In this document: one piece after another, positions 1 to 18,299 of the stretch
Numbering within the stretch: position 1 is the stretch's first letter
Layout: every line of letters starts with the position of its first letter
Source of the DNA: Escherichia phage vB_EcoM-Ro157lw
Sequence record: MH051335.1
Reading direction: 5' to 3' (one strand)
Length of the DNA stretch: 64,000 nucleotides
Position numbers and translations under genes: made by a program
The notes under the pieces: generated by a model
The model's input: the letters and a program-made list of their open reading frames with translations, nothing else
Database searches by the model: none
What the model was told of the DNA's origin: nothing

Positions 1-135
1 ATTTTGAATTAATTTAAATTAATTTTTTCTACATCCTCATACTTATGTTAATTTATATATTTAACGTATTATCCGTAAGATATAAGTAAAAACAAAGACT
101 TGCGGCAATACGGATGATACGTCATGATACGCTTC
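1..135. repeat. AT-rich tract plus iteron-like decamer CGGATGATAC (111-120) with partial copies; inverted paralog of the element at 15866-15938
   Basis: Direct reading: 111-135 and flanks match the reverse complement of 15861-15885 (one mismatch over about 25 bp); shared AATTAATTTAAATTA-type AT tract. Confidence 0.5.
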
Positions 136-359
136 AACCAGCCAGCAGCGGCTAAGTCATTGATTTGCATAACACGCGGCGAAAGGGATGGATTTCTTTT
201 ATACGTATCAAACAGTACACCAAGCACCACGGTCCGCTATTCATTAAGCATTGTGATTTATGTACGTTTACAGCCAATTTGAACATCAATCTGCACTTGA
301 ATATAATGTTCAATCATTGTATAATTCACACTATTAATTTGCACTATGGGATTTGCACT

Positions 360-833
360 ATGAGTCAAGATTATGTAGCAATGCCTGAAGACTTTGAAGA
401 CCCGCGATTTGCAGAGCATAATCAGGCATTATTCGATGAGTTCATTGACCTTGTTATTCAGGGCCATGACATGCGCGCAGCTTTTGCACTAGTATTTGGC
501 ATGGAGGTTGCGACCGATAACTACACTGGCCAGCGAATCCTCTGCACGCAACGCAATCCGTACTACAAGATGCGCTACAAAAAGCGTATGGAAGAGATGC
601 CATTGAAGGAATTGTGGAGCGTAAAGAGTTCCATCCACAATTTAGTGAAGCTTGTGCGTGATCCAGAAGTCGCGGCATCAGCCAAGCTTAATGCCATTCG
701 TGAACTGAATATCATCTACGGCATTACGATGATTGATGAAAACGGCAATAGTAAAATGGGCCGTTCCATGGATGATTTCTACAAGGATTTTGGAGAGGCG
801 GCCAAAGAGGGTGAGCAATTCTCCCGCCACTAG
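360..833 (+). CDS. hypothetical protein (start uncertain; frame is open back to a TTG at 165)
   Basis: ORF track 165..833; first ATG-initiated stretch MSQDY at 360; region upstream is occupied by motif copies; no clear SD. Confidence 0.5.
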   Translation: MSQDYVAMPEDFEDPRFAEHNQALFDEFIDLVIQGHDMRAAFALVFGMEVATDNYTGQRILCTQRNPYYKMRYKKRMEEMPLKELWSVKSSIHNLVKLVRDPEVAASAKLNAIRELNIIYGITMIDENGNSKMGRSMDDFYKDFGEAAKEGEQFSRH

Positions 834-852
834 CCAATTTGCACTATAAAAC

Positions 853-886
853 GGCCCTAGAACACATTTTCTCCACTTCTAGGGCC
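853..886 (+). other. stem-loop (10-bp perfect stem GGCCCTAGAA/TTCTAGGGCC, 14-nt loop) downstream of CDS 360..833
   Basis: Inverted repeat read directly; no U-tract, so not a classic terminator. Confidence 0.4.
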
Positions 887-1261
887 ATCGGTAATACGAC
901 GGGGAAGGCTGCAACCATAAACGCGTTAGAAAGTGTATTATTATAAGTCATCTTTTAGTCACTTTACGTAACAATTTACGACCTTCAGCCGTCCAGTCGA
1001 ACGACTCCACCAGCAGATTTGCACTATAACCTAAGACGATGCGCCCTTTCTCGTTATCAACCCGCCAACAAGTCTCGAATAGCATTCGATTTGCACTATT
1101 AACTATCGCCGCAGCGCGCGTTGGGTAAGCGCAATTTGCACTATGGTCGTAAAGGGATAAGGTGCGACCACTTCCGATGGACAACGTAGCGATGAGAATA
1201 AGCGTATTCATAAGCCACCAATTTGCACTATGAAAAGCGACCCCGAAGGGCCGCCATTCGA

Positions 1262-1888
1262 TTAGATGATCTGGAAGGTGTAGGACTTGTTGCCGAACTC
1301 AAAGTTTAAGCGCCCAGCTTCCTTGAGCTTCATACGGAAGCGAATGTGCTTGCTATCCGGTAAGCCCAGCGCGGCGAACGCTACGCGGACTGATTTGAAC
1401 TCGCCTACACCCTCGACCATAACGGCGTTACGCGTGAGACGCTTTTGCGCCACTTCCTTGTTATCCCAACTTTTTGCAATACCTTCGCTATTCGAACGGC
1501 GATGGGAAGGACTGGCAATTTTATCCGCGCCAACCGGAGTATCATTCAGGCCGCTCTTGACGAATGCTTCATACTCTTCGTCGGTCATCGCGTCGAGTTC
1601 TTCCTGAGTCGGCTCGGCCTTTTTAACGACCGCACGCGCCTTATGCGTTTTTACATCGCTGGACACTTCCTCGCACGGCTTCGCGTCTGGAATGGGCGAT
1701 TCGTTGGACGGCTCATCGAGCGCGTTTAAGGACTCGATTAACGCGATGACGCGAGTCTCAGCGGTGCGACGGTCCGCAAACTTCTTAATCGGTTTTGAGC
1801 CGGAGTTAGCGTTATAGAACGCAACGAGGTCGGCGGTCTTAGTTGCGATAACGTCGCCGCTAGTAGAGAAACGATTCAAGCTAACCAT
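1262..1888 (-). CDS. hypothetical protein
   Basis: ORF track; ATG with AGGAG SD on minus strand; CpG-rich, CTG-poor codon usage; followed by a short UUCG-loop hairpin and T-run. Confidence 0.6.
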   Translation of the reverse strand: MVSLNRFSTSGDVIATKTADLVAFYNANSGSKPIKKFADRRTAETRVIALIESLNALDEPSNESPIPDAKPCEEVSSDVKTHKARAVVKKAEPTQEELDAMTDEEYEAFVKSGLNDTPVGADKIASPSHRRSNSEGIAKSWDNKEVAQKRLTRNAVMVEGVGEFKSVRVAFAALGLPDSKHIRFRMKLKEAGRLNFEFGNKSYTFQII

Positions 1889-2029
1889 AATAAACTCCTA
1901 GTTTGGGAGCGGCGTTAACGACCTATTCGCTAACTCATCCCGTCCCGATATGAGTACATTATAATATAGTGTAGAAAAAAGTAAAGCACTTTTTCGATAA
2001 AAATGCGATAAATTATTTTATCTTTTTTC

Positions 2030-2057
2030 TTTACTTCTTCGTACACTCGCGTATACT
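2030..2057 (+). promoter_or_regulatory. sigma70-like promoter TTTACT-N16-TATACT inside a conserved ~45-bp element
   Basis: Element CTTTACTT.TTCGTACACT...GTTTATATCGAGA repeated upstream of 2113 and 2523. Confidence 0.45.
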
Positions 2058-2112
2058 TGTTTATATCGAGACGGGCGATGGCCTTCCTTCTACTAGCATC
2101 GGGAGCTTTATT

Positions 2113-2415
2113 ATGACTACTTTAATCTCTTCCATCCTTACTTACGACGAAGACCGTTTAACCGTTCGCTCTCTTATCGCCGCCGTTAACGCGGAACTAG
2201 AATCCAGCGCCATTAAGGTCCGCGCGGTCGCCTTCGTCGGCCTCTCCTTCGACGAAATTAAATACGCCGAACGTAGCGCCATCCGCTTCGCGAAGACCGA
2301 CGACGAAGCCGTCACCCTTATCGAGACGGTTACGCCGCGCGACGAAGCGTTAATTATCGTCGAGTATATCGACGTAGAAGGCGATAATGCTTATAAATAT
2401 TTTATCGCAAAATAA
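2113..2415 (+). CDS. hypothetical small protein (acidic)
   Basis: ORF track; ATG with GGGAG SD; promoter-like element upstream. Confidence 0.6.
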   Translation: MTTLISSILTYDEDRLTVRSLIAAVNAELESSAIKVRAVAFVGLSFDEIKYAERSAIRFAKTDDEAVTLIETVTPRDEALIIVEYIDVEGDNAYKYFIAK

Positions 2416-2426
2416 CGAAAAAGTGC

Positions 2427-2455
2427 TTTACTTATTCGTACACTAAGACTATAAT
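2427..2455 (+). promoter_or_regulatory. sigma70-like promoter TTTACT-N17-TATAAT (second copy of the conserved element)
   Basis: Consensus -10 hexamer; leader contains an 8-bp stem hairpin at 2478-2498. Confidence 0.5.
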
Positions 2456-2522
2456 GTTTTATATCGAGAGGGGATGAGGTAGCGAATAGGTCGCTACCCT
2501 CCCGACTAACTAGGAGAATATT

Positions 2523-2813
2523 ATGATTACTTTATCCGCTATCCGTTCCGCTCGCGTCGAAACTTCCGAAAACTCTAACGTATTTGGCGAAACCTTAGAG
2601 AGCGTTTATCTCTCTAACGTAGACGCGATTATCGAGTCTATTTATGAGCCGATCAACTTTCTCGACCTTTACAAGTATCGCGACGAGGACATCGTATCCT
2701 ACCGCGTAACGATTAACGGCTTCGTCTATACGATTACCGAAATCGGCGGCGAATATATCGCTGTACCGCAACTCGGCGGCGAAGTAACTTACTTTAAAAT
2801 CGTAAGCCTTTAA
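2523..2813 (+). CDS. hypothetical small protein (acidic)
   Basis: ORF track; ATG with AGGAG SD. Confidence 0.65.
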   Translation: MITLSAIRSARVETSENSNVFGETLESVYLSNVDAIIESIYEPINFLDLYKYRDEDIVSYRVTINGFVYTITEIGGEYIAVPQLGGEVTYFKIVSL

Positions 2814-2824
2814 GGAGAAGAAAG

Positions 2825-3034
2825 ATGACTAATATGAATAACTCTCTTAACGCGCGCGCCCATCGCACCGCCGTAATCGATATGTTTCGCGAGCTTAAGG
2901 AATTATGCGATAATATGAACGCGATGTTATCCATCGGCGGCTGGGGATACGAAGAAGAAGTTAAATACGCGGTTATGCGTCGCCGTCGCGATAACGTCCT
3001 TGGGCAAATTAAACGCGCCGGATTATTCCTTTAA
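2825..3034 (+). CDS. hypothetical small protein
   Basis: ORF track; ATG with AGGAG SD. Confidence 0.6.
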   Translation: MTNMNNSLNARAHRTAVIDMFRELKELCDNMNAMLSIGGWGYEEEVKYAVMRRRRDNVLGQIKRAGLFL

Positions 3035-3060
3035 TTATAATCACCCACCGTTACTAATAG

Positions 3061-3082
3061 GCCGCGCTTAGTCGCGGCTTTT
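3061..3082 (+). terminator. intrinsic terminator (GCCGCG/CGCGGC stem, 6-nt loop, TTTT)
   Basis: Hairpin plus T-run 27 nt after the stop at 3034. Confidence 0.55.
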
Positions 3083-3204
3083 CTTCGTCCCTATCTCGAT
3101 GCGCTTCTCCTCGAAAACTCCTTTATCCTTCCCTTCTTCGTCGCATAATCTTCGTCGAGATGCGCCTTAGTTCGCATAACAGGTATTACGTTAAATGGAG
3201 AACA

Positions 3205-3278
3205 TCGCGTAAGTCGTTGTTTTATATAGACACCTATATCGGAACGTTAAGGCGGGTCGCGTAAGTCGTTGTTTTATA
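3205..3278 (+). repeat. 22-bp perfect direct repeat TCGCGTAAGTCGTTGTTTTATA x2 (3205-3226, 3257-3278)
   Basis: Direct reading, period 52 bp, non-coding region. Confidence 0.85.
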
Positions 3279-3402
3279 AAGGCGCAAAACTTTCCCTTCG
3301 TTCCGAACTAAAACGAGAAATATGCCGACCCTTCGCCCGAAAATAGTACGCATGCGAAATTACCGACATCTAGAATAATCCCCACCGATATTATTCTGCG
3401 CG

Positions 3403-3462
3403 CAATCATTCGCTTTCGAACTATTATGCTTCATATTATTATGCGTCGAATCATTCGCTTTC
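3403..3462 (+). repeat. 15-bp direct repeat (C/G)AATCATTCGCTTTC x2 (3403-3417, 3448-3462); adjacent 8-bp-stem hairpin at 3372-3397
   Basis: Direct reading, period 45 bp. Confidence 0.8.
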
Positions 3463-3555
3463 TAATTGTAACGCTGGAAACTGTAACGGCGATTGATTAT
3501 TGCGTTCGTGTGGTTTTTAGGGCATGGGTCTTTTGGTGCGTTTTGGTACTTGATG

Positions 3556-3668
3556 AAATTTGCAGTACACTAATCAAAATACGACACATTTGGCCCACTA
3601 ACTTTTCAAAGAAAAAGTCCTAGACAGTACCGTACTATTTTGTGCCCACAGTAAATTTGCAGTACACT
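3556..3668 (+). repeat. 16-bp perfect direct repeat AAATTTGCAGTACACT x2 (3556-3571, 3653-3668); shares the ATTTGCA core with the 337-1231 array
   Basis: Direct reading, period 97 bp. Confidence 0.85.
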
Positions 3669-3737
3669 CCTGCGCGGCAGGCAAAATAAAGGGCCGCCAC
3701 AGCGACCCACGATTCACGGTTAAATCAGCAACACCCA

Positions 3738-4133
3738 CTATTCACTCTTATGGGCATCACCAAAGCCATCCGCAATCTGACTGATCAATGATTCAATGGA
3801 CACAGTTTTACCAATTGATCGAGCGGTAATAGCAAGCATATTATCAATCAAACCATGATTAGACGCATATGGTCCAGGTTTTGAATCATCTTCAGGACAA
3901 CCAAAAAGCTGGTCGCGAAGACTTTCAAGAGAACGCTCAATATTTTCCAGCTTCTCTTCTAAATCGGATTGGCGACGTAAAACCCACGTTAAGTCGCGGT
4001 TGCCGACTTCCAATCCATCAGAATCGCAAGATGGAGCGTCAATTTTGATACTTCCACTAAAGGCCATTCCGCTGCCTTTAGTATATGTATTGTGAATAGA
4101 ATCATTTTTATTTGACATATCATTACCTTTCAT
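3738..4133 (-). CDS. hypothetical protein (alternative start at 4118 has the better SD)
   Basis: ORF track. Confidence 0.55.
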   Translation of the reverse strand: MKGNDMSNKNDSIHNTYTKGSGMAFSGSIKIDAPSCDSDGLEVGNRDLTWVLRRQSDLEEKLENIERSLESLRDQLFGCPEDDSKPGPYASNHGLIDNMLAITARSIGKTVSIESLISQIADGFGDAHKSE

Positions 4134-4213
4134 GAGGGTGATTAACTTGAATTATAATAAAGCCGCATAGCGCGACATTCAAATCGGTTTGTTAATTGTA
4201 ACGATTGGATTCA

Positions 4214-4408
4214 TCAATCGATACCAACTGAGCCGATGTGCTGAAAGAACTCTGAATAAACTTCCTTCCAGTATTTACGGGCTGCTTTCTGAGCCTGTCC
4301 TTTGCGCTTGAAGCTTTTACCTTGAAATATGAAGCGGTCTTTTGGTGCGTAATACTCCACCACACCTTCCAGCCATTGTAAGAACGCTACTGATTCATTT
4401 TTATTCAT
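4214..4408 (-). CDS. hypothetical small basic protein
   Basis: ORF track; ATG with GAGGT SD. Confidence 0.55.
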   Translation of the reverse strand: MNKNESVAFLQWLEGVVEYYAPKDRFIFQGKSFKRKGQAQKAARKYWKEVYSEFFQHIGSVGID

Positions 4409-4415
4409 ATTAACC

Positions 4416-4883
4416 TCAATATTTTAATAAGAAAGCGCCCAACCAACTCTCCTCAACCTCGCGGCCAGTAGCCACACGGTCGGTCTTTGCTATGGGCCTG
4501 GATTCGCCGCATGGCAATCCGTCTTGCAGTTGTGTACTATTGCCAATTCTCACCATGACCTTTCCATCAGGGTCGATATAAGCGCGACAACCCATTATTT
4601 CGAGTCGTTGTAGACACTGGCGAATCGTTTTCAGCCTTTCACCGGACCGGATAGAGCGCGGTCGCGACCTCTGACCGTTCTTATTCACTGTACGCTTGAA
4701 GACCGGAATCTCATTGGTGCGTTGCGCTTTCGGTCGGTAGTAGGCTTCCTCGCCAGGAGTCGCACCTGGTGTTAATTCTCGCTTGAGAGCCTTTTCAATA
4801 TCGATGATCATAATTATGCCGCTGCAGCGTAAACAATTGCATAAGCGATTCCAAACAGCGCGGCAATGCATACCGTGCCCCAA
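4416..4883 (-). CDS. hypothetical basic protein (start uncertain; TTG at 4883, ATG at 4871 or 4811)
   Basis: ORF track; no clear SD at any candidate start. Confidence 0.45.
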   Translation of the reverse strand: MGHGMHCRAVWNRLCNCLRCSGIIMIIDIEKALKRELTPGATPGEEAYYRPKAQRTNEIPVFKRTVNKNGQRSRPRSIRSGERLKTIRQCLQRLEIMGCRAYIDPDGKVMVRIGNSTQLQDGLPCGESRPIAKTDRVATGREVEESWLGAFLLKY

Positions 4884-4904
4884 AATGCAAAGCGTCGTGA
4901 CTCT

Positions 4905-5114
4905 TTATCCATTGTCCACCGCTCCAATATCCTTCAAGAACTTGTGCAAGTCGCCCTTCTTGTTAAGCTTTTGCATAGTTTTGATATCATCAAGTGATAT
5001 ACCTTGATCGCTTTGTTGTTTGTCAATGCAGACAATGCCGCCTTTCTTAGCCTTGATTGTCATGCCTTTGGCTTCAATACTTTTTACGAAATCGGACAAT
5101 AATTTAATTTCCAT
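4905..5114 (-). CDS. hypothetical protein
   Basis: ORF track; ATG overlaps upstream stop. Confidence 0.55.
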   Translation of the reverse strand: MEIKLLSDFVKSIEAKGMTIKAKKGGIVCIDKQQSDQGISLDDIKTMQKLNKKGDLHKFLKDIGAVDNG

Positions 5115-5395
5115 TAGAACCTTTCTCCAATATCCATAAAATTAAACACTAATTTGGCCATGTCATCTTGTGAAATCACGTTGTAGTGTTTAGGCAGATT
5201 GCTTTCTGACAATACTTTCTGGGCTTCTTCTGCTGTCTCAAACAAAGGGATACACCAATTAACTGCGTCGCCAGGATCATTGCTATCAACTTGTTTCAAG
5301 AAAACCAAGCGGTTGTCTTCAGGATCAATTCCGCAAATCACATATTTAGGCAGCGCCTTTGCTTTTTTGGCCTTATCGATGTCTTCAAATTTCAT
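5114..5395 (-). CDS. hypothetical protein (ATG at 5395 with GAGGTG SD; track extends to GTG at 5404)
   Basis: ORF track plus RBS inspection. Confidence 0.55.
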   Translation of the reverse strand: MKFEDIDKAKKAKALPKYVICGIDPEDNRLVFLKQVDSNDPGDAVNWCIPLFETAEEAQKVLSESNLPKHYNVISQDDMAKLVFNFMDIGERF

Positions 5396-5451
5396 TTCAT
5401 TCACCTCACTTGTTAACGTATAATGAGTATAACTTAATAGCGCATAAAGTA

Positions 5452-5471
5452 AAGGCGCTTTTCAGCGCCTT
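5452..5471 (-). terminator. hairpin terminator (8-bp stem AAGGCGCT/AGCGCCTT) downstream of the leftward tail-fiber gene
   Basis: Perfect inverted repeat 8 nt after the stop at 5479. Confidence 0.5.
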
Positions 5472-5478
5472 GAGTGAA

Positions 5479-7833
5479 TTATTTTGCTGATTTTAGCGCG
5501 GCTATCTCTGCCTTGAGTTCATCTATCTGATCCATCAATGCAAGAATAGCCTCGTGGTGCAGCGCCGCAGCCACTCCGTAAGTGTCGACTGATTTGATAT
5601 CCTCGACAATTGTGCCATCCTTTAGTTCCGTGTTTGAATATTTCAAAGTCTTTACTGCATCAGGGAATACGCCTTCTACGTCTTGGGCGATAAAGCCAAT
5701 TCCATTCGGTTTTTCTGATTTATCAAGACGCTCCCAAGTCACACCCTTGATCAACCTCATCTTCCCTAACGGGTCTGAAATCCTTTGAATGTTCGTCTTG
5801 ACCCTCTCATCAGACGTGCTAACCCAGTTCCCAGCACTGGCAGTCCCATCAGGGAAAAATCTGAAGTCAGCGGCTTGCCCTGCCCCGTTGTTGATTGATA
5901 TTTGCGCACGCTCTAAGGCTGTGCTGCCGCCGCGAACGCCGCCAAATGTATAGCTGCCATCATACCAATCTCCTGAAAAATATGACACATATCCAGGCGT
6001 TGATTGATTGAAGTTGACCATCCTCATGGCATTTCTTTCATGCGCTGAAACGCCTACTGAGTTCAACGGTTGCGCAACAAGGTCTTTTGGTCTGAGATAT
6101 GCATTAACAGTCAATGCGCCATCACTTCTCTGAGTCTCAATTTGCGTTATTGAGTCCGGGAAAGATAGTGCTCCATATTGGTTGAATGACCACTCTTGCA
6201 CACCATTTGAAACTATTGCTCCACATTCAGACGATGATCCATCAATCTTGCCGTATGCCTGCAAGAATGCTTGATACGCGATGTTCGTGCCAATCTTATA
6301 TTCAGATTTTACACTACCGCCTCTGACAAGCGTTCCGGTTGCAGGTTTTACTGCGTCGCCGTTGATAACGCTCCAAGACGTATTCGCGGCAACAAATCCA
6401 CCCGATGCACGAATCACCCAAACGCCTTCAAAGGCATTAGGTCGAACTTCATTTGCACCATCACGCCCATAAGCGCCATTGGAAAGGCTTGCATCAATGT
6501 TCAATCCGTTCCTATAGTTAAGGTTTGTTGCACCTCCGTCTGGACCAACTCTTAGGCCTGGAATAACAACAGGTGCTGGAACTATTGCCCCTGTCCCTGT
6601 GTTACCTGCCGTGTTATATTGCGTTGATATTGAAGTACCAATTGAACCGGTTATGTTTGGCGCTGCGTTTTGTCTTACGCGACCGTCAGAAGAAGACACT
6701 CCACCATCGCCTCGTCCAAATAAGCCTGGGATGGACCCCGCTTGGACACCGTTTCTGTCTGGTACGCGGAATGTTGTTGTTCCGTTGCCCAAAGAATATT
6801 TGCCGCGTTTTGCTGGGTCGGCAAGCCAGTCAGCATCGGCAATAGGGGAAAGCATTTGCGCATAAGCCCAAAGTTCAGGCCAGTCTGCACGATTTAACAA
6901 TTGTCCGTCAGAAACGACTTCATAAGGTTGAATATAAGCACGGCTGTCCCGTAAGTGGAAATCACCGACGCCATAGTTCATAACACCGTTCATGCTTGGG
7001 CCAACAGTTCCGGTGTTTACTAAGTTCTCAACCCAACGTTTAGTCGCGGCGTCATAATCATTTACAGGGTCGCCAGCAAGCGGAGTTGGGCCTATCGGTC
7101 GGATATTCAGCCATGCCTGCGCGTTATCACCTGATCCTGTGCCTCCCATCGAAGTAGGAACAATATTTTGATCAGCGACTTGCCCGAATCCAAAAGCGGA
7201 CTTCATCCCTTGGATGGTAGTTTGTCCTGTGCCGCCGTTGGCTACTGGGATGACAGATTCGCTGTTGTATATTTGCTCCCATCGACTCCAAACTCCATTT
7301 ACCGCGTTGTAAGTCCTTTGGTATGTAACATTGTTGTAGTATGTTGAGTATCTTTGTACACAACTTTCTATTGATGGTCCAGTTTTTAGAACTTCAAGGA
7401 CTCCTGCTTGTAAAACTGGGTAATTAAGAACAGGCTGAGCATCTGCATTGAAGTCTTGGAAATAATTTCCAAACCAAGAGCCTGTCAGAAAGTTGAGATT
7501 TATCCCAGAAGGAAGTTTGCCATAATTTCTTACAACCCCTGTTAAGGTCGCAGCAGTGTTACGAATGGAAAGCAGATCTCCAGTCGCCCATGCACGCGCT
7601 GCAGTCCCTTCCTGTGCACGCTGCACGGTCAGGACGTTCCCAACCACGGCTGTTACTGTGACGATTTCGAATTGAAGGCCTGTTGCAGCGTCAACGATTG
7701 TCGCCACTACGCTCTCGTTTGCGCCCAAGGTCGGAAAGTCCGACCCTGAGCGAATTGTGATTGTGGTGTCTGAAGTCGTCGTTGGTTGAGCCAGCGCGAC
7801 CTCAAAGTTGTTTTTGAATATTAGCCTTGGCAT
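5479..7833 (-). CDS. tail fiber protein with tail-collar domain and C-terminal intramolecular chaperone (peptidase S74-type)
   Basis: Collar-like motif LLNRADWPELWAYAQ...FRVPDRNG; C-terminal SDERVKTNI...GFIAQDVE plus terminal coiled coil typical of self-cleaving fiber chaperones; GAGGA SD. Confidence 0.75.
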   Translation of the reverse strand: MPRLIFKNNFEVALAQPTTTSDTTITIRSGSDFPTLGANESVVATIVDAATGLQFEIVTVTAVVGNVLTVQRAQEGTAARAWATGDLLSIRNTAATLTGVVRNYGKLPSGINLNFLTGSWFGNYFQDFNADAQPVLNYPVLQAGVLEVLKTGPSIESCVQRYSTYYNNVTYQRTYNAVNGVWSRWEQIYNSESVIPVANGGTGQTTIQGMKSAFGFGQVADQNIVPTSMGGTGSGDNAQAWLNIRPIGPTPLAGDPVNDYDAATKRWVENLVNTGTVGPSMNGVMNYGVGDFHLRDSRAYIQPYEVVSDGQLLNRADWPELWAYAQMLSPIADADWLADPAKRGKYSLGNGTTTFRVPDRNGVQAGSIPGLFGRGDGGVSSSDGRVRQNAAPNITGSIGTSISTQYNTAGNTGTGAIVPAPVVIPGLRVGPDGGATNLNYRNGLNIDASLSNGAYGRDGANEVRPNAFEGVWVIRASGGFVAANTSWSVINGDAVKPATGTLVRGGSVKSEYKIGTNIAYQAFLQAYGKIDGSSSECGAIVSNGVQEWSFNQYGALSFPDSITQIETQRSDGALTVNAYLRPKDLVAQPLNSVGVSAHERNAMRMVNFNQSTPGYVSYFSGDWYDGSYTFGGVRGGSTALERAQISINNGAGQAADFRFFPDGTASAGNWVSTSDERVKTNIQRISDPLGKMRLIKGVTWERLDKSEKPNGIGFIAQDVEGVFPDAVKTLKYSNTELKDGTIVEDIKSVDTYGVAAALHHEAILALMDQIDELKAEIAALKSAK

Positions 7834-7871
7834 TTTACGGTCCTCGTTTTGTCGACAACCGTATTATAACC

Positions 7872-8213
7872 TTAATTTCTTTTGAGAGGAATATGACGGT
7901 TGCTGTCATTATTTGGTTTAATAATGAGCATAAAAACGATTAGAAAGATGATGGCTGATATACTTAATTCAATCAGCGCCGCTTGAGATATGGATTGATC
8001 TTCATGATACTGCTTTTGCATTTCTGCTTTCTTCTGAGCGCAAACTTCAGGTGATATATAATCGCCTTTTGAGTTGCCATAATAAATCTCGCCATTCTCA
8101 GAAATAAGCCTGCCGCAAATATCCGTTTCAGCTTTTGCGCTTGAAATCATAATAACGGTGCCGATGATAGCGGCGATAGTCCAGATTAGCAGTTGTGATA
8201 AAGTATTGTTCAT
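7872..8213 (-). CDS. membrane protein (N- and C-terminal hydrophobic segments)
   Basis: ORF track; AGAGG SD. Confidence 0.55.
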   Translation of the reverse strand: MNNTLSQLLIWTIAAIIGTVIMISSAKAETDICGRLISENGEIYYGNSKGDYISPEVCAQKKAEMQKQYHEDQSISQAALIELSISAIIFLIVFMLIIKPNNDSNRHIPLKRN

Positions 8214-8408
8214 GATAACCTCTTTAATTCCCTTCCCATATCGGGAAGGGCAAATATTATTTTACGCGAAAGAATAGGCGCGTGCCACACAGCGAGTCCC
8301 AACGGCCCTCACCATCCCATATCGACCCAACACCAGCAGCGATTGGTCCAGCAGAATTGGCGGCATTGGCCCAGGCGAGTCGTTTAAGCTTCCAACTGCA
8401 CCAACGAT

Positions 8409-8642
8409 TCACAGTTCGCCTCCAGACTTCAAAATTAATCCCGCATAGATTATTGCCAGAGCTAAAGGCGCACCGTCGCCAGCCTCTCTATTCTCTTTGA
8501 TTTGAAGAGTATCTTTTAGGAATTGAAGCTGAACGTTGAATTCATTTTCAATTCCAAGCACTCCAGCTAATCCTTTTACAGAATCTGCATATGCCTTGTC
8601 TATCACTTCTTTTGGCACCGTTAAGGTTAATTCATTTGCCAT
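8409..8642 (-). CDS. hypothetical protein (ATG at 8642; track extends to TTG at 8660)
   Basis: ORF track. Confidence 0.5.
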   Translation of the reverse strand: MANELTLTVPKEVIDKAYADSVKGLAGVLGIENEFNVQLQFLKDTLQIKENREAGDGAPLALAIIYAGLILKSGGEL

Positions 8643-8853
8643 TTTCTTTCCACTCCACAAATGTACTGCTACTTGTTTCTCTATTTAGCAGGTATCTGCC
8701 GCGCATTCCACGAAGGCTGAATTCAACCGTCGATGGATTAGATTTTGAAAGCCACATCACTTGACCGTCGAACGGTCCGCCAACGCATGTGTATTTGGCC
8801 TTTGGCTCACTCCTTTTGGGCCTCTTTGCCCGCTCTTTGATTGATAGTCTCAT
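8632..8853 (-). CDS. hypothetical basic protein
   Basis: ORF track; AAGGTGA SD. Confidence 0.5.
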   Translation of the reverse strand: MRLSIKERAKRPKRSEPKAKYTCVGGPFDGQVMWLSKSNPSTVEFSLRGMRGRYLLNRETSSSTFVEWKENGK

Positions 8854-9068
8854 CAGTCTTCACCTTGAGATTCAAGACAAGTAAGAACAAGCCACGTCAT
8901 CGGAAGAATCAAAACCAGAGAAATAAGTGACCAAATGGACCAACACAAGATGACAGACTTGAATGTGTGAACGTCGCCAAACGCAGCAGTGAAACAAAAT
9001 CCCATTACGAAAGCAATCGCTGTGGAGTGATTATCAATGGCTTTGATGGCGCGGTCGATGAGTTTCAT
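8853..9068 (-). CDS. small membrane protein with two predicted TM segments (holin candidate, unproven)
   Basis: ORF track; GGAGGT SD; hydrophobic stretches. Confidence 0.5.
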   Translation of the reverse strand: MKLIDRAIKAIDNHSTAIAFVMGFCFTAAFGDVHTFKSVILCWSIWSLISLVLILPMTWLVLTCLESQGED

Positions 9069-9149
9069 ATTACCTCCGGTTTTGAGTTAATATGATTATA
9101 ATGCAGAATTTCAGAAAGGCAAACTTTTTGTGAATTTAAATTAAAAAAA

Positions 9150-9170
9150 TGGCCAGAAATAATCTGGCCA
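9150..9170 (-). terminator. minus-strand-oriented hairpin (7-bp stem, A7 before and A5 after on plus = U-tract on minus)
   Basis: TGGCCAG/CTGGCCA inverted repeat in the divergent region. Confidence 0.4.
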
Positions 9171-9246
9171 AAAAGATCACCCTTTATCCACTACTAAGCT
9201 GGAATCATAATTTTACTTGATATAGCTGTCTCAAGCAAACTATAAT

Positions 9247-10707
9247 ATGAATAAAATATTAACACATAATTGGAAAGTCATGTACCAGTTGAATCCTGCT
9301 TTAAGAGAAGTCTGGAAGACGAAAGCGCGATACAAAGTCATATACGGCGGTCGTGCATCTTCCAAATCGCACGATGCCGCTGGTTTTGCTATTTATTTGG
9401 CGGCAAACTTCAAATTAAAATTCCTTTGCGTTCGACAATTCCAGAACAAGATTTCTGAATCAGTATATACGCTATTAAAAGATAAAATAGAGATTTCTGA
9501 TTTTAAAGACGAGTTCAACTTATTAAAGAACTCTATTGAACACAAAAGAACAAAATCTGAATTTTTATTTTACGGTATCGCACGCAACGTTGACGAAATC
9601 AAATCAACAGAAGGTGTTGATGTTCTTTGGCTTGAAGAAGCGCATGCACTGACTGAAGAGCAATGGGACATCATTGAGCCGACAATTCGTAAGGAAGGGT
9701 CCGAAATATGGATCATATTTAACCCTGATGAAGAGGCTGATTTTGTCTACCAGAACTTTGTCATGCGACCGCCGAAGAATGCCATCGTTAAGAAGATTAA
9801 CTGGCAGGACAACCCATTCTTGTCGCAAACAATGCTGGATGTTATAGCTGGCATGTATGAGCGCGACCCGAAAAAGGCAGAACACGTTTATGGCGGAGTA
9901 CCGAAGACTGGCGGCGACAAGTCGGTCATCAACCGTGCATTTGTCAAGGCCGCGCTAAACCTCCACAAACACCCTACGCTGGGGTGGAGCTTGTCAGGGT
10001 CTAACCGTATAGGCTTCGACGTGGCGGACGACGGCGACGACTTAAACGCCACAGCGTTTGTCACAGGCAACGTATTACGTGGCATCAAGACATGGGAAGG
10101 TCTGGAAGATGAATTGCTTAAGTCCGCAAGCGGAGTTTGGAAAGACGCATTGACATTCGGCGCATCAATCACCTATGACGCCATCGGTGTTGGTGCATTT
10201 GCTGGTTCAAAATTTGATGAGCTTAATGAGTATGCAATCCATGAAAATCCAACATTCCCAAGAATCGAATTTAATGCGTTCAACGCGCAAGGTGCTGTTG
10301 ATGATCCTGATGACGTTTTCCTTGAGTTACCACACGTTGAAATACTCAATAAAGACCATTTCGCAAACATAAAAGCGCAAAAATGGACTGAGATTGCCGA
10401 ACGATTCAGAAAGACATATGAGTATGCGACAGGGCAAGCCGTATATCCGACCGATGAGTTGATTTCCATCGACACAGACGGCATCCCAGAACTTGGTATT
10501 CCCGCTTGGTCTGCCGAAGAAATTGAGACGTTTCTTTTTGAGATGTCAGCACCGCGCAAAGACACGTCTGTTCTTGGTAAGTTCAAAGTTGAATCGAAAA
10601 AAGATATGGCAAAGCGTGGAGTCAAATCGCCTAACAAAGCGGACGCAGCAATCATGGCATTGATGAAACCAATTGTTGCAGCATCCGGCTTCTTCTCTAA
10701 CCTTTAA
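9247..10707 (+). CDS. terL: terminase large subunit
   Basis: Deviant Walker A GGRASSKS, Walker B VDVLWLEEA; position ahead of portal. Confidence 0.8.
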   Translation: MNKILTHNWKVMYQLNPALREVWKTKARYKVIYGGRASSKSHDAAGFAIYLAANFKLKFLCVRQFQNKISESVYTLLKDKIEISDFKDEFNLLKNSIEHKRTKSEFLFYGIARNVDEIKSTEGVDVLWLEEAHALTEEQWDIIEPTIRKEGSEIWIIFNPDEEADFVYQNFVMRPPKNAIVKKINWQDNPFLSQTMLDVIAGMYERDPKKAEHVYGGVPKTGGDKSVINRAFVKAALNLHKHPTLGWSLSGSNRIGFDVADDGDDLNATAFVTGNVLRGIKTWEGLEDELLKSASGVWKDALTFGASITYDAIGVGAFAGSKFDELNEYAIHENPTFPRIEFNAFNAQGAVDDPDDVFLELPHVEILNKDHFANIKAQKWTEIAERFRKTYEYATGQAVYPTDELISIDTDGIPELGIPAWSAEEIETFLFEMSAPRKDTSVLGKFKVESKKDMAKRGVKSPNKADAAIMALMKPIVAASGFFSNL

Positions 10708-10710
10708 CAA

Positions 10711-10950
10711 TTAAAGCATTCCGTGCTGAAGGTCGAGCTTTCTTGCGGCAAACGACCTGGCACGGAATCGCTTACCCGCCCTTACTGCCTGTCGAATTTT
10801 CTTTTGCAAACACTTACGGTCAAAATCGTTGCGGTCGACGGCTTCGAGTAAATCGCGACGCAGTGCACCCAGTGTCGACTTATCGGAGACTTCGACGCCG
10901 AGCGCGGCTGCAACATCTTTCAAAACATCGAGTTCGGTTAAAGTTCTCAT
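10711..10950 (-). CDS. hypothetical protein with Rho-N/SAP-like N-terminus and basic tail
   Basis: ORF track; motif LTELDVLKDVAAALGV; AAGGGG SD. Confidence 0.5.
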   Translation of the reverse strand: MRTLTELDVLKDVAAALGVEVSDKSTLGALRRDLLEAVDRNDFDRKCLQKKIRQAVRAGKRFRARSFAARKLDLQHGML

Positions 10951-11363
10951 TTAATAATCCCCTTGATGTCTGATTCTGCCATGAAGATTGGAGTGCCGCC
11001 GCCAGGAACAATCGAGCGCGTAACTTTGTCAAACATATCGTTTTCTTCAACTTGAATACGATAAAATTTATTTTTGGATGAAGATGGGCACAATCCCATA
11101 AATTTGCCGATTCCGCGAACGCATTCATCTTCAAAGTATACTGTTTCACCTTGAATGGAGTCGATATTGTCTACTGGATAGACTTTGCGACCCAACAACC
11201 ACTCATCCAAAGTCGCCTGCAAGACGTTTCGCGCATCTAAAATCCACGGGTCAATAGTAGCACCTTCGTATCGCGCAGCAGTGGCCTTTGCCAGTTCTTC
11301 ATATTCGCATACGTTAACGACTTCGCCGTTGTGTAGGACGACAAATACAATTGTTGTGCTCAT
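10947..11363 (-). CDS. hypothetical protein
   Basis: ORF track; AGGAG SD; 4-bp overlap with downstream gene. Confidence 0.55.
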   Translation of the reverse strand: MSTTIVFVVLHNGEVVNVCEYEELAKATAARYEGATIDPWILDARNVLQATLDEWLLGRKVYPVDNIDSIQGETVYFEDECVRGIGKFMGLCPSSSKNKFYRIQVEENDMFDKVTRSIVPGGGTPIFMAESDIKGIIK

Positions 11364-11458
11364 TTCAATCTCCTTTCGTTTGGTTAACTAAAATATAACT
11401 CAAAATGATACAAAAGCAAAATATTTTATGAACTATTTATGATCACCATACATATCAT

Positions 11459-11487
11459 TTGCTTACAAACACATGAATATTTATAAT
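11459..11487 (+). promoter_or_regulatory. sigma70-like promoter TTGCTT-N17-TATAAT upstream of portal
   Basis: Hexamers read directly. Confidence 0.4.
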
Positions 11488-11525
11488 ATAGATTGATTCC
11501 CTTTCACTGTCAGGTGGCGTTAACA

Positions 11526-13901: not shown

Positions 13902-13902
13902 T

Positions 13903-14754
13903 ATGGCTTTTAAAGCTTCGAAAAAACGTGAACGCCGCTCACCCGATAGAATCGGGCGCGGCAGTCCGATAATCCCATCAAACGCTATTGCGATGGCCTA
14001 CCGTCGTGAGATGAAAGGTCTTTGCTATGCGATGATTGATGACTATCAGGCAGGAATTTCAGAGTGGCTTGAAAAGAAGCAGGTGCAGAAGTTCTTTGCG
14101 CAAGACTCTGCTGATTCAACATTCCAAACTCTTATGAAACGTCTGCAGCTGAAATGGGCAAAGGCGTTTGCTCGTGTTGGGTCGAAGATTGCCGCTGATT
14201 TTATCAAGTCGGTTGAAAAGGGTGCTACTTCTGCTACATTCGCCAGCCTTAAGTCCGCAGGCATAGAAGCGCCAAAGGCCACATATAACAAATTCGTTGA
14301 GAACACTCTTAGAACAAGCGAGACGTTTAACACGACTCTAGTGACTAAGGTCGGCGAGGATATTCACAACAGAGTGTACGAAGCAGTCATGCTTTCGCTG
14401 ACTTCGCCCGACCCAGCCCAGCAAGGCACGTCAGGCATTCAGGCGGCGCTGCGAAACGTAAAACACTTCTCTGCAAAGAGAGTCGACTTAATCGCTAAAG
14501 ACCAGACAAGCAAATTGTATTGCGTTCTAAGCGATGAAAGGATGCGCCAGAATGGAGTTGAAGAATTTGAATGGGCGCACTCAGGAGCAGGAAAGGAGCC
14601 GCGAATCTCTCATGAACACGTCGACGGAATGAGATTTAAACTTGATGACAAGCGCCTATGGGAAGTTGGCGGAGAATTGAAGTTCAAAAAGGGTGACATC
14701 GGTCCTCCTGGATGGGCAATACACTGCAAGTGCAGGAAAATACCAATCATTTGA
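13903..14754 (+). CDS. head morphogenesis protein (MuF / SPP1 gp7-like)
   Basis: Position directly after portal; ATG at 13903. Confidence 0.55.
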   Translation: MAFKASKKRERRSPDRIGRGSPIIPSNAIAMAYRREMKGLCYAMIDDYQAGISEWLEKKQVQKFFAQDSADSTFQTLMKRLQLKWAKAFARVGSKIAADFIKSVEKGATSATFASLKSAGIEAPKATYNKFVENTLRTSETFNTTLVTKVGEDIHNRVYEAVMLSLTSPDPAQQGTSGIQAALRNVKHFSAKRVDLIAKDQTSKLYCVLSDERMRQNGVEEFEWAHSGAGKEPRISHEHVDGMRFKLDDKRLWEVGGELKFKKGDIGPPGWAIHCKCRKIPII

Positions 14755-14761
14755 GGTCATT

Positions 14762-15682: not shown

Positions 15683-15692
15683 AGAGGAAGTT

Positions 15693-15830
15693 ATGCAAAA
15701 GATTATTCAGTCACGTTACGTTAAAGTGCGAAATATTAATTGCAACTCTTTGCTTTCTTGGAAATGGGCTGTTTACGACTCGATGCTGATTGGCGTTTTA
15801 GTTGCTGGAGTGCTTTTTAATATTCACTGA
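15693..15830 (+). CDS. small hypothetical membrane peptide (45 aa); below ORF-track size cutoff
   Basis: ATG with AAGAGGA SD; hydrophobic C-terminus MLIGVLVAGVLF. Confidence 0.4.
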   Translation: MQKIIQSRYVKVRNINCNSLLSWKWAVYDSMLIGVLVAGVLFNIH

Positions 15831-15865
15831 ATCGCCTGGCAATGGATTGCCGCAGGATTTTACGC

Positions 15866-16136
15866 GTATAATGACGTATCATCCGTATCAAGTAAGTAGT
15901 TGTTTTCAAAAGAATCTTACGGATGATACGGATGATACGCGTTGCCGCGATAATTTATAGGAATTCAAATAAATTAATTTAAAATTATATATCTAATTTA
16001 ATTTTATTTTTTTATAAACTCTTATATATGAAAAGTATCCGTATCATCCGTATCATCCGTAGCACACCAGTGATAGCGCGGCTTATACACCGATACGGAT
16101 AAAAATACGCCTCATTTTATCCGTATCATCCGTATC
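15866..16136. repeat. iteron-like region: GTATCATCCG at 15876, 16041, 16050, 16123; inverted tandem CGGATGATAC at 15920 and 15929; ~90-bp AT-rich tract at 15951-16040
   Basis: Direct reading; coordinates anchored to ORF-track boundaries. Confidence 0.85.
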
Positions 16137-16194
16137 ACACTAATTAAGGCGCGGCTATATCGGTTGTTATACATATTCAAACCATAATTATTGT

Positions 16195-16223: not shown

Positions 16224-16246
16224 ACACAATACTTATTTGAGGGTGG

Positions 16247-17665: not shown

Positions 17666-17667
17666 AC

Positions 17668-18285: not shown

Positions 18286-18299
18286 TAGGCAGGTGAATA

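What the first reader, a model, noticed from the sequence alone, without database searches (positions are those of the whole stretch)
1262..3300. CpG-rich, CTG-poor block with twin promoters
Genes 1262..1888 and 2113..3034 use many CG-containing codons (CGC, GCG, TCG, CGA, ACG) and almost no CTG, unlike the terminase or tail genes. Two of them are each preceded by the same ~45-bp promoter element with a near-consensus -10. The products are small and acidic, a profile seen in early host-takeover or anti-defense proteins. The block may be horizontally acquired.
Basis: seen in the sequence. Interest (0 to 1): 0.35.

Follow-up and report, generated by a model that had tools for sequence, protein, structure and literature searches.

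The report
Terminal-repeat early genes lacking CA/TG
A 2-kb set of probable first-expressed phage genes inside the genome's terminal repeat is written in DNA that almost completely avoids the dinucleotide step CA/TG, a bias kept in three phage genera that may help this first-exposed DNA escape host restriction enzymes.

Summary
The window is an Escherichia Wifcevirus genome that starts at its physical left end. The flagged block lies inside the ~3.7-kb direct terminal repeat (DTR).

The underlying bias is depletion of the CA:TG step, to 0.26-0.44 of expectation against 1.19±0.10 elsewhere (z = -8.6). CpG (2.0-2.4) and TpA (1.2-1.4) are raised as a consequence. The bias covers coding and non-coding DNA on both strands and occurs nowhere else in the 64 kb. 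GATC is also nearly absent.

There are three promoter copies, not two (CTTTACTT-N-TATAAT). They drive a 208-aa putative nucleic-acid-binding protein, two acidic orphan proteins (pI 4.2-4.5) and a 69-aa basic protein.

The same module sits in the DTR of Serratia Myosmarvirus and Pantoea Kylevirus: the same promoter type, a homologue of the 208-aa protein, acidic proteins and the same CA/TG depletion. Paralogues and homologues outside such blocks have normal composition. Simple horizontal acquisition is therefore not supported; the bias is maintained in place.

My best reading (confidence about 0.4) is a T5-like pre-early module whose DNA is purged of restriction targets. Published Wifcevirus phenotypes fit this: resistance to five restriction systems and sensitivity only to EcoP1. 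AGACC is the only tested site present in a cleavable arrangement in the DTR. Why CA:TG in particular is avoided remains unexplained.

The parts
1..3673 (.). Direct terminal repeat (DTR) of the phage genome. The window begins at the physical left end.
   Evidence: The region is 93-97% identical to Wifcevirus genomes. In phage Mansfield, PhageTerm defines the DTR as 1-3673, and its gene coordinates run within 1-2 nt of the window's as far as the 208-aa gene. The records for WFH, WFC and SP13 hold two copies of this region. The boundary in the window is inferred by homology.
1700..3480 (.). Core of the CA:TG-depleted, CpG- and TpA-enriched block. It has a sharp right edge near 3480-3500 and fades gradually on the left towards about 1262.
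   Evidence: It is the only such region in the 64 kb.
1262..1888 (-). Gene for the 208-aa protein (phrog_4730 family). It has two folded domains joined by a linker and is a putative nucleic-acid binder. CA/TG depletion is partial and graded, 0.062 to 0.105 per nt from 5' to 3'.
1958..1986 (-). Promoter P1: CTTTACTT, a 15-nt gap, then TATAAT. It drives the 208-aa gene.
   Evidence: Its leader (1916-1999) is an inverted copy of the P3 leader.
2029..2057 (+). Promoter P2: CTTTACTT ... TATACT. It drives the 100-aa gene.
2113..2415 (+). Gene for a 100-aa acidic protein (pI 4.5). It has 8 CA+TG in 300 nt, and its only Q/H/W/C/M residue is the initiator Met. The family is found only in Wifcevirus.
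2426..2455 (+). Promoter P3: CTTTACTT, a 16-nt gap, then TATAAT. It drives the 96-aa and 69-aa genes.
2523..2813 (+). Gene for a 96-aa acidic protein (pI 4.2). It belongs to a three-branch paralogous family confined to these blocks.
2825..3034 (+). Gene for a 69-aa basic protein (pI 9.5), phrog_10377, annotated 'transcriptional regulator'. It is an accessory gene present in 8 of 28 Wifcevirus records, with homologues in Klebsiella Webervirus.
3059..3080 (+). Intrinsic-terminator-like hairpin followed by a T run. It ends the rightward operon.
   Evidence: A terminator is annotated at the same place in Mansfield and WFH.
3035..3480 (.). Non-coding tail that is also CA/TG-depleted. It holds two pairs of direct repeats, 3205-3229/3257-3281 and 3388-3430/3433-3475.
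   Evidence: MyoSmar has a comparable ~300-nt depleted non-coding tail after its terminator.
337..1231 (+). Seven copies of ATTTGCACTAT, all on the + strand, flanking the block on the left. Their relation to the block is unknown.
3558..3664 (+). Two copies of the related motif AAATTTGCAGTACACT. They lie between the block and the inner DTR boundary.

Best explanation
The block is the immediate-early ('pre-early') host-takeover or anti-defence module of a Wifcevirus.

**How it is arranged.** It sits in the long direct terminal repeat, so every virion DNA carries it at both ends. Unmodified host RNA polymerase would transcribe it from three near-identical promoters (CTTTACTT-N15/16-TATAAT). The products are a conserved two-domain protein, probably nucleic-acid-binding, and a changing set of small proteins that are mostly acidic.

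**Why the composition is odd.** These genes must work before any protective phage protein exists. I propose that their DNA is under weak but persistent selection to lack targets of host DNA-cutting immunity. That selection would have removed the CA:TG step, and with it CAG/CTG, CCWGG, TGCA and most type I and type III sites. It would also have removed GATC. The CpG and TpA excess and the scarcity of Gln, His, Trp, Cys and Met would then be by-products.

**How the rest of the genome is covered.** Once made, the early products would protect the remainder of the genome, which is full of restriction sites. This is the logic known for the first-step-transfer region of phage T5.

**What is shown:** the location in the repeat, the promoter copies, the composition and its conservation, the independence of the bias from protein family, and the restriction-site maps.

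**What is inferred:** early timing, the protective function, selection by restriction systems, and any staged DNA entry.
For: **Location.** The block is inside the DTR in Wifcevirus. In Serratia phage MyoSmar the DTR is 1-3559 and the block is 200-2000; its promoter starts at 254 and reads inward from the physical end. In Pantoea phage Kyle an exact 3603-nt repeat holds the block at 1600-3400.

**Expression signals.** The window has 3 promoter copies, Kyle 4 and MyoSmar 1, all sharing the invariant CTTTACT and TATAAT elements. A terminator follows the rightward operon.

**The bias belongs to the place, not to the proteins or their ancestry.**
- In the Myosmarvirus phages, the block copy of the 208-aa family has 0.03 CA+TG per nt (measured in MyoSmar). 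The second copy elsewhere in the genome has 0.13 (measured in SMP).
- The 69-aa gene has 13 CA+TG (minimum possible 10, expected 29.7). Its Webervirus homologue has 30.
- Accessory genes in the same block of Mansfield and F13 are depleted too.

**The bias persists through divergence.** The 96-aa orthologues differ at 87 of 291 nt yet keep 8 and 5 CA+TG. Unconstrained change would give about 20 (P < 1/20000).

**No strong mutational bias.** CA/TG-creating variants do segregate within the genus: 31 gains against 9 losses, with a neutral expectation of 4.5:1. Gains are more often singletons than losses are (p = 0.02).

**GATC.** The three blocks hold 1, 1 and 0 GATC. About 9 and 7 were expected in the two blocks that were shuffled, window and MyoSmar.

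**Fit to published phenotypes.** BASEL Wifcevirus isolates resist EcoKI, EcoCFT_I, EcoRI, EcoRV and EcoCFT_II despite 19 EcoRI and 92 EcoCFT_II sites per genome. They are very sensitive only to EcoP1_I, and the authors left this unexplained (PMC11990801).
- I inferred the EcoCFT_II site as CACAG from the published site counts in two genomes.
- The DTR of Bas99 holds 0 EcoRI, 0 EcoRV, 0 EcoAI-like, 1 EcoKI and 1 CACAG site (5.1 expected, P = 0.036).
- It holds 6 AGACC sites in both orientations. The window's DTR shows the same pattern.
Against: - There are no transcript or DNA-entry data for these phages, so early timing and any two-step entry are inferred.
- Apart from CACAG against AGACC, the site counts carry little statistical weight. 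Zero EcoRI sites has P = 0.35-0.47.
- Short palindromes are more frequent in the block in absolute terms, not rarer: 84 against 57±7 four-base palindromes per kb, and CTAG is 12-fold enriched. Relative to the block's own dinucleotide content they are only modestly avoided, z = -2.2 to -2.7 in the window and weaker in MyoSmar. This is not classical palindrome avoidance.
- Removing CA:TG eliminates only 16 of the 64 six-base palindromes (by enumeration), and roughly half of random type I and III sites (my estimate).
- In a published list of Salmonella methylation motifs, removing GA:TC would have hit even more motifs (PMC4393132). The choice of CA:TG is therefore not explained.
- The rest of the DTR (1-1260) has normal composition, although it would enter together with the block.
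- Related phages Pa193 (first 50 kb examined) and PCSE1 (whole genome) lack such a block.
- No protein of the block resembles a known anti-restriction protein.
Confidence: 0.4

Rival explanations
1. The block is marked by composition for, or shielded from, one specific factor that reads the CA:TG step or a bulk property that depends on it. One candidate is a phage early function that shuts off or degrades all 'ordinary' DNA, as A1 does in T5. Another is a host DNA-binding protein that must be kept off the early genes. Under this reading the early genes are the same, but the selective agent is not the restriction repertoire.
For: - The depletion affects all eight CA/TG trinucleotide classes and non-coding DNA on both strands.
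- Even the -35 boxes read TTTACT rather than TTGACA, in three genera.
- The block's oligonucleotide usage runs opposite to that of the rest of the genome: CTAG-rich and free of CCWGG and TGCA.
Against: - 82 CA/TG steps remain in the core, so a strict dinucleotide-specific nuclease would still cut it.
- Polymorphism suggests only weak selection per site.
- The rest of the phage genome has ordinary composition and would be attacked too.
Confidence: 0.2
2. The constraint acts on RNA or on translation. The early mRNAs would avoid UG and CA: that is, start codons, UGA, particular codons or tRNAs, or the targets of a host RNase or toxin. This would ensure fast, clean expression in an intact host.
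For: - Depletion is strongest inside coding sequence: 0.1-0.3 against 0.3-0.5 in intergenic DNA.
- The amino-acid composition is bent as well, with Q/H/W/C/M at 1-2% against 11%.
- All bacterial start codons contain TG.
- These phages are reported to have very short latent periods (PMC11990801).
Against: - CA and TG are depleted equally on the same strand, whichever way the gene runs.
- The non-coding tail after the terminator and the divergent promoter region are depleted as well.
- CTG, the commonest E. coli Leu codon, is avoided, which argues against optimisation for speed.
- ACG, ACT and ACC are plentiful, so the toxins that cut at ACY are not avoided.
Confidence: 0.1
3. A region-specific mutational process created and maintains the bias without selection. 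Candidates are transcription-associated damage, a deaminase, or a peculiarity of how the repeat is copied.
For: - CA:TG converts to CG or TA by single transitions.
- The block is a heavily transcribed part of a repeated sequence.
- The amino-acid composition has shifted, as a mutational drive would predict.
Against: - Two different context-specific transitions would be needed at once (C to T and A to G within CA). GC content is unchanged, unlike RIP-type deamination.
- There is no strand asymmetry.
- The rest of the DTR is normal, so repeat copying is not the cause.
- Within the genus, CA/TG-creating variants arise at close to the neutral rate: 25.6% of polymorphisms against 33.7% expected.
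Confidence: 0.08
4. One reading: the block is a horizontally acquired island that still carries its donor's composition.
For: - The composition is unlike the rest of the genome.
- Gene content within the block varies between isolates.
- The 69-aa gene has homologues in Klebsiella siphoviruses.
- Related phages Pa193 and PCSE1 lack the block.
Against: - No donor exists. The acidic families are confined to these phages among 5.8 billion proteins and IMG/VR.
- All 28 Wifcevirus records carry the block.
- Three genera retain the bias although their sequences are saturated with change.
- The only gene with outside relatives has been recoded away from their composition.
- Orthologues 30% diverged have not drifted towards the composition of the rest of the genome.
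Confidence: 0.05

Closest known systems
Phage T5 first-step-transfer (pre-early) region in the long terminal repeat
   Same: - Early genes sit inside a long direct terminal repeat and are read from strong host-type promoters, partly divergent (for the T5 annotation).
- The expected logic is the same: restriction sites in this DNA decide sensitivity, while the rest of the genome is protected once the early proteins are made. For T5 and EcoRI this is established knowledge that I recall, not something tested here.
- The T5 repeat is also CpG-richer than the adjacent DNA, 1.3-1.5 against 0.5-0.9.
   Different: - The repeat is 3.7 kb against 10.2 kb.
- No homologues of A1, A2 or dmp were found.
- The phage is a myovirus of the Pbunavirus-related group, not a siphovirus.
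- T5 shows no CA:TG depletion, with o/e 0.8-1.08.
- Two-step DNA entry is unproven here.
Bacillus phage SPO1 host-takeover module in the terminal redundancy
   Same: A cluster of small genes of unknown function with strong early promoters and ribosome-binding sites inside the terminal repeat. This rests on my own knowledge of SPO1; it was not examined here.
   Different: No sequence relationship was looked for or seen, and the host group differs. To my knowledge no dinucleotide exclusion has been reported for SPO1.
Restriction-site avoidance in phage genomes (GATC and palindrome avoidance in coliphages; site-free early DNA)
   Same: GATC is almost eliminated: 1, 1 and 0 sites in the three blocks. 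Sites of five tested restriction systems are absent from the DTR or present only singly.
   Different: Here a whole dinucleotide step is removed from a 2-kb segment only, rather than specific sites from a whole genome. Short palindromes are more frequent than in the rest of the genome.
Acidic DNA-mimic anti-restriction proteins (Ocr, ArdA)
   Same: The products are small, acidic (pI 4.0-4.5) and encoded in early genes, in a phage that resists type I-III restriction without a known mechanism.
Repeat-induced point mutation (RIP) signature in fungi
   Same: CA/TG is depleted and TpA is raised within a duplicated sequence.
   Different: CpG is doubled and GC content is unchanged. The genes stay intact, and only part of the repeat is affected. 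It is not a RIP-like process.

Membership tests
T5-type pre-early / first-step-transfer region | Lies within the long direct terminal repeat | tested here: met
   The Mansfield DTR is 1-3673 by PhageTerm. Its gene coordinates run within 1-2 nt of the window's up to the 208-aa gene, after which an extra gene shifts them. Two copies are present in the WFH, WFC and SP13 records. The Kyle repeat is exact over 3603 nt. The MyoSmar DTR is 1-3559.
T5-type pre-early / first-step-transfer region | Transcribed first, by unmodified host RNA polymerase | tested here: inconclusive
   There are three conserved promoter-like elements with TATAAT or TATACT -10 boxes and TTTACT -35 boxes. No expression data are available.
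T5-type pre-early / first-step-transfer region | DNA entry pauses after the repeat until the early proteins are made | not testable with these tools
   This needs infection experiments, such as shearing or marker entry with protein synthesis blocked.
T5-type pre-early / first-step-transfer region | Homologues of A1, A2 or dmp | tested here: not met
   Pfam gave no family. PHROGs gave only families of unknown function and one 'transcriptional regulator' family. PDB sequence searches gave nothing below E = 0.1.
T5-type pre-early / first-step-transfer region | Restriction outcome is set by the sites in the first-entering DNA | tested here: inconclusive
   The site maps fit the published phenotypes. 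Only AGACC (EcoP1) is present in multiple, oppositely oriented copies, and the phages are sensitive only to EcoP1. This is a correlation, and essentially one contrast carries the weight.
DNA-mimic anti-restriction proteins (Ocr/ArdA-like) | Strongly acidic small protein | tested here: met
   The 100-aa and 96-aa proteins have pI 4.49 and 4.23, and their paralogues 4.05. This does not hold for the 208-aa or 69-aa proteins.
DNA-mimic anti-restriction proteins (Ocr/ArdA-like) | Sequence or fold similarity to a known mimic | tested here: inconclusive
Horizontally acquired genomic island | Homologues in a donor lineage with the same composition | tested here: not met
   The acidic families occur only in Wifcevirus. 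The Webervirus homologue of the 69-aa gene has normal composition.
Horizontally acquired genomic island | Patchy presence among close relatives | tested here: not met
   All 28 Wifcevirus records carry the block. Only single cassettes within it vary.
RIP-like deamination signature | CA to TA conversion with loss of GC and no rise in CpG | tested here: not met
   GC content is 0.43-0.50, as in the rest of the genome, and CpG o/e is doubled.

The most novel reading that the evidence does not exclude
The near-exclusion of one dinucleotide step is a deliberate, heritable 'stealth' or 'self-mark' code for pre-early phage DNA. In one version, it is a general way to place the most vulnerable 2 kb of a phage genome in a part of sequence space that few host DNA-targeting systems recognise. 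In the other, it is a composition-based label that lets a phage factor tell its own early genes from all other DNA. Either would be a new principle of phage genome design. It is conserved across at least three genera infecting Enterobacterales, and it would explain how these phages resist type I, II and III restriction without DNA modification.
Probability: 0.25. Interest if true: 0.85.

Novelty: new variant of a known kind. Interest (0 to 1): 0.62.

Why it matters
- **An unexplained resistance.** Wifcevirus phages resist most restriction systems with no known protection mechanism, and their single sensitivity, to EcoP1, is unexplained (PMC11990801). Their Pseudomonas relatives, the Pbunaviruses, are among the phages most used for therapy.
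- **A concrete, testable explanation.** A small pre-early module in the terminal repeat, written in restriction-poor DNA, would account for this. It also points to a handful of orphan proteins as candidate broad anti-restriction or takeover factors.
- **An extreme and unreported bias.** A maintained CA:TG o/e of about 0.25 with CpG o/e above 2 is far outside ordinary bacterial and phage signatures. I did not find it described: a full-text search on phage dinucleotide bias returned nothing relevant, and the passages of the Wifcevirus papers that I read do not mention it.
- **Practical uses.** If the bias is adaptive, it gives a simple compositional search key for pre-early modules in other phages. 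It also gives a design rule for engineered phages.

Tried and rejected
- **Classical palindrome avoidance.** Rejected as the main cause, because palindromes are more frequent in the block in absolute terms. They are only modestly under-represented relative to dinucleotide shuffles.
- **Chimera idea for the graded depletion of the 208-aa gene** (5' part from a block paralogue, 3' part from a normal paralogue). The N- and C-terminal parts show no differential similarity.
- **Function of the 208-aa protein.**
  - The word-indexed homologue search returned only near-identical Wifcevirus copies and was of no use for an alignment.
  - The exhaustive search gave 830 clusters and a good model.
- **DNA-mimic test for the 96-aa protein.** The model is too uncertain.
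- **RNA families.** Rfam found no family in 1-4500.
- **More genera through the acidic family.** The IMG/VR scan found only Wifcevirus.
- **Literature.** A search for phage dinucleotide bias in terminal repeats found only fungal RIP and eukaryotic-virus papers. The paper on synthesis of vB_Eco4M-7 says nothing about the termini or about toxic fragments.
- **Polymorphism test for ongoing selection.** The direction is right but the signal is weak: overall chi-square p = 0.16, gains against losses p = 0.02. The pairwise test against WFH points the same way and is not decisive.
- **T5 as a precedent for the bias.** Its repeat is CpG-richer than the adjacent DNA but not CA/TG-poor.
Full report
**What the window is.**

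The flagged region is 93-97% identical to 28 Escherichia and Shigella myoviruses of the genus Wifcevirus; the closest is ECML-117. The window starts at the same base as the records of phages Mansfield and WFH. In Mansfield, PhageTerm defines a direct terminal repeat (DTR) of 1-3673, and gene coordinates run within 1-2 nt of the window's as far as the 208-aa gene. The WFH, WFC and SP13 records contain the region twice. The finding at 1262-3300 therefore lies inside the DTR.

**Checking the observation.**

The block is CpG-rich and CTG-poor as stated.
- CpG o/e is 2.04-2.37 in 500-nt windows, against 1.09±0.18 in 240 windows elsewhere (z = 6.1).
- None of 22 Leu codons in the three + strand genes is CTG, against about 20% elsewhere (P = 0.008).

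The underlying signal is more general: the CA:TG step is depleted.
- Its o/e is 0.26-0.44, against 1.19±0.10 (z = -8.6). No other 400-nt window in the 64 kb falls below 0.75.
- All eight trinucleotide classes containing CA or TG are the most depleted. CAG/CTG is lowest at 0.12x and ATG/CAT highest at 0.67x.
- All CG- and TA-containing classes are enriched.
- Pyrimidine-purine steps are thus redistributed from CA:TG to the two self-complementary steps. GC content is unchanged.

Further properties of the bias:
- It affects both strands equally.
- It covers the divergent promoter region and a 450-nt non-coding tail as well as the genes.
- It ends sharply near 3480-3500 and fades gradually through the 208-aa gene.
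- In the three + strand genes the CpG excess lies at codon junctions: 24-31% of junctions against 8.4±3%.
- The proteins themselves are bent. Gln, His, Trp, Cys and Met make up 1-2% of the two acidic proteins, against 11±3% elsewhere.
- Recoding the same proteins with the genome's codon usage gives 30-36 CA+TG per gene. The observed counts are 5-8, and none of 5000 simulations was as low.

The 'twin' promoter is a triplet: P1 (-, 1986-1958), P2 (+, 2029-2057) and P3 (+, 2426-2455). All three share CTTTACTT and a TATAAT or TATACT box. The P1 leader is an inverted copy of the P3 leader. Two products are acidic (pI 4.5 and 4.2). The 208-aa and 69-aa products are basic.

**Is it a relic of horizontal transfer?**

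The evidence says no.
- The 208-aa gene belongs to a large family: phrog_4730, with 830 clusters at 50% identity. It is shared with Pbunavirus and other relatives at the equivalent genome position.
- The 100-aa and 96-aa families exist only in Wifcevirus. This holds for 28 phage records, for a search of 5.8 billion proteins and for IMG/VR.
- Accessory genes that some isolates carry inside the block are equally depleted.

Three natural controls show that the bias goes with the location.
- **Paralogues in Myosmarvirus.** These Serratia phages carry two paralogues of the 208-aa family. The block copy has 0.03 CA+TG per nt (measured in MyoSmar). The other copy has 0.13 (measured in SMP).
- **The 69-aa gene.** It has 13 CA+TG. 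The minimum its protein allows is 10, and 29.7 are expected. Its 45%-identical homologue in Klebsiella phage Sushi has 30.
- **The 96-aa orthologues.** The window and WFH versions differ at 87 of 291 nt and 36 of 96 residues. They still have 8 and 5 CA+TG, where unconstrained change at those positions gives 20±3.

**Conservation beyond the genus.**

Two further genera carry the same module in their DTRs.
- **Serratia phage MyoSmar and its relatives SMP and MTx.**
  - The DTR is 1-3559 by PhageTerm, and the only CA/TG-depleted region is 200-2000.
  - It starts about 250 nt from the physical left end with the promoter CTTTACTTAGCTCACATCTGCGCCTATAAT.
  - It then runs through a homologue of the 208-aa protein, two small acidic proteins and a terminator, and ends with about 300 nt of depleted non-coding DNA.
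- **Pantoea phage Kyle.**
  - An exact 3603-nt terminal repeat holds a depleted block at 1600-3400.
  - It has four CTTTACT...TATAAT promoters, a homologue of the 208-aa protein, and acidic proteins of 94 and 88 aa. The first has 0.018 CA+TG per nt.
- **Position in the repeat.** In Wifcevirus and Kyle the block ends about 200 nt before the inner DTR boundary.
- **Phages without the block.** Pseudomonas phage Pa193 (first 50 kb examined) and Salmonella phage PCSE1 (whole genome) have none.
- **GATC.** The three blocks hold 1, 1 and 0 GATC. About 9 and 7 were expected in the window and MyoSmar blocks from dinucleotide shuffles.

**Selection or mutation?**

I compared eight Wifcevirus genomes across the block core.
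- There are 31 variants that create a CA/TG, 9 that destroy one and 81 neutral ones.
- Neutral mutation from the present composition predicts a gain-to-loss ratio of 4.5; the observed ratio is 3.4.
- Gains make up 25.6% of polymorphisms against 33.7% expected, which is not significant.
- Gains are more often singletons than losses are (p = 0.02).

CA/TG-creating mutations therefore arise freely, so there is no strong mutational drive. Their long-term removal must come from weak selection at each site, of the strength seen for codon bias. That selection has nevertheless persisted across three genera. This is my inference from the polymorphism data and the deep-divergence comparisons.

**What the proteins are.**

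- **The 96-aa family.** It has three paralogous branches, some with acidic tails. Kyle's 94-aa acidic protein looks related to one branch by eye; I did not align it. The model is poor (pLDDT 66) and has no structural match. The DNA-mimic idea remains open.
- **Databases.** Pfam, PHROGs, the PDB sequence search and Rfam added nothing further.

**Most likely mechanism.**

The module has the anatomy of a pre-early host-takeover region, as in the T5 first-step-transfer DNA. It sits in the terminal repeat, and so at both ends of every virion DNA. It has host-type promoters. It encodes small orphan proteins that turn over quickly. I put the confidence that it is immediate-early at about 0.75.

For the composition, the best-supported idea is target avoidance in DNA that must function before any protection exists. 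The published phenotypes give independent support.
[quoted passage not shown] They are very sensitive to EcoP1_I, although EcoP1_I and EcoCFT_II have similar numbers of sites (PMC11990801).
- My counts reproduce the paper's for AGACC, EcoRI, EcoRV, EcoKI and the EcoAI-like site.
- CACAG is the only 5-mer that gives the published EcoCFT_II counts in both Bas99 (92) and Bas01 (51).
- The DTR of Bas99 holds 0 EcoRI, 0 EcoRV, 0 EcoAI-like, 1 EcoKI and 1 CACAG site (5.1 expected, P = 0.036).
- It holds 6 AGACC sites in both orientations, which type III enzymes need. The window's DTR is the same.
- The one system that works is thus the one whose site cannot be removed by excluding CA:TG and is present in a cleavable arrangement in the DTR.

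**Why confidence stays near 0.4.**

- The link to restriction is a correlation that rests largely on a single contrast.
- Short palindromes are more frequent in the block than elsewhere, and CTAG is 12-fold enriched.
- Excluding CA:TG removes only a minority of six-base palindromes and about half of random bipartite sites.
- In a published Salmonella motif list, about 7 of 13 motifs must contain CA/TG and 3 more may. Excluding GA:TC would have hit even more of them (PMC4393132).
- The choice of CA:TG might reflect coding cost, because GAN codons are needed for acidic proteins. That is my inference only.
- The remainder of the DTR has normal composition.
- The rivals are a dedicated factor that reads CA:TG, an RNA- or translation-level constraint, a local mutational process and a horizontal relic. 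Each is listed with its evidence in the rival explanations.

**Novelty.**

Terminal-repeat pre-early modules and restriction-site avoidance are both known. What I did not find described is the near-exclusion of one dinucleotide step from a 2-kb module, conserved in three genera together with its TG-free -35 box. I rate it a new variant of a known kind. It has an unexplained core and gives direct, cheap experimental tests.

Noticed in passing
window 337-1231 and 3558-3664: The motif ATTTGCA(C/G)TA occurs nine times, always on the + strand and only inside the terminal repeat. Seven copies lie left of the block and two lie right of it; none is inside it or elsewhere in the 64 kb (0.47 expected by chance). 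Kyle has a related TTGCACTACA three times. MyoSmar has a different 17-mer three times. They could be binding sites for the terminase, a regulator or an entry-pausing factor.
   Followed up: partly
window 3205-3281 and 3388-3475: The non-coding, CA/TG-depleted tail after the terminator holds two pairs of close direct repeats: a 25-mer 52 nt apart, and a 43-mer 45 nt apart at 79% identity. Weak promoter-like matches on the - strand fall in the second pair.
   Followed up: no
window 3480-3560: The depleted block ends abruptly and is followed at once by a G/T-rich stretch (GTTCGTGTGGTTTTTAGGGCATGGGTCTTTTGGTGCGTTTTGG). In MyoSmar the 100 nt at the physical end, next to the block, are C/A-rich.
   Followed up: no
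L016 (phage T5, NC_005859) 1-10219 against 10220-30000: The T5 terminal repeat (first-step-transfer DNA) has CpG o/e 1.3-1.5 in most 1-kb windows (0.97-1.52 overall). The next 20 kb have mostly 0.5-0.9. CA/TG is about normal throughout. This may be a milder relative of the same phenomenon.
   Followed up: partly
L015+L019 (Bas99) and L020 (Bas01): The recognition site of the type III system EcoCFT_II, which is not given in the text I could read, can be inferred as CACAG. It is the only 5-mer whose counts match the published 92 sites (Bas99) and 51 sites (Bas01).
   Followed up: yes
window 53001-54000: The composition is unusual: AT skew -0.378 for the kilobase, and GpC o/e 2.34 at 53501-54000. 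I did not examine it.
   Followed up: no
window about 15500-16500 and 10000-11500: These windows have moderately raised CpG o/e (1.3-1.6), with low GC around 15.5-16.5 kb. Their CA/TG content is normal, so this is a different effect from the block.
   Followed up: no
window 1993-2020: Between the divergent promoters P1 and P2 lies TTCGATAAAAATGCGATAAATTATTTTA. It resembles the high-affinity H-NS nucleation motif TCGATAAATT, which I recall from memory and did not test.
   Followed up: no
window 360-833: The gene just inside the left end is annotated in phage Mansfield as a small terminase subunit, on an HHpred match. In the window it lies among the repeated ATTTGCACTAT motifs. Pfam found nothing for it, and PHROGs places it in a family of unknown function.
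   Followed up: partly
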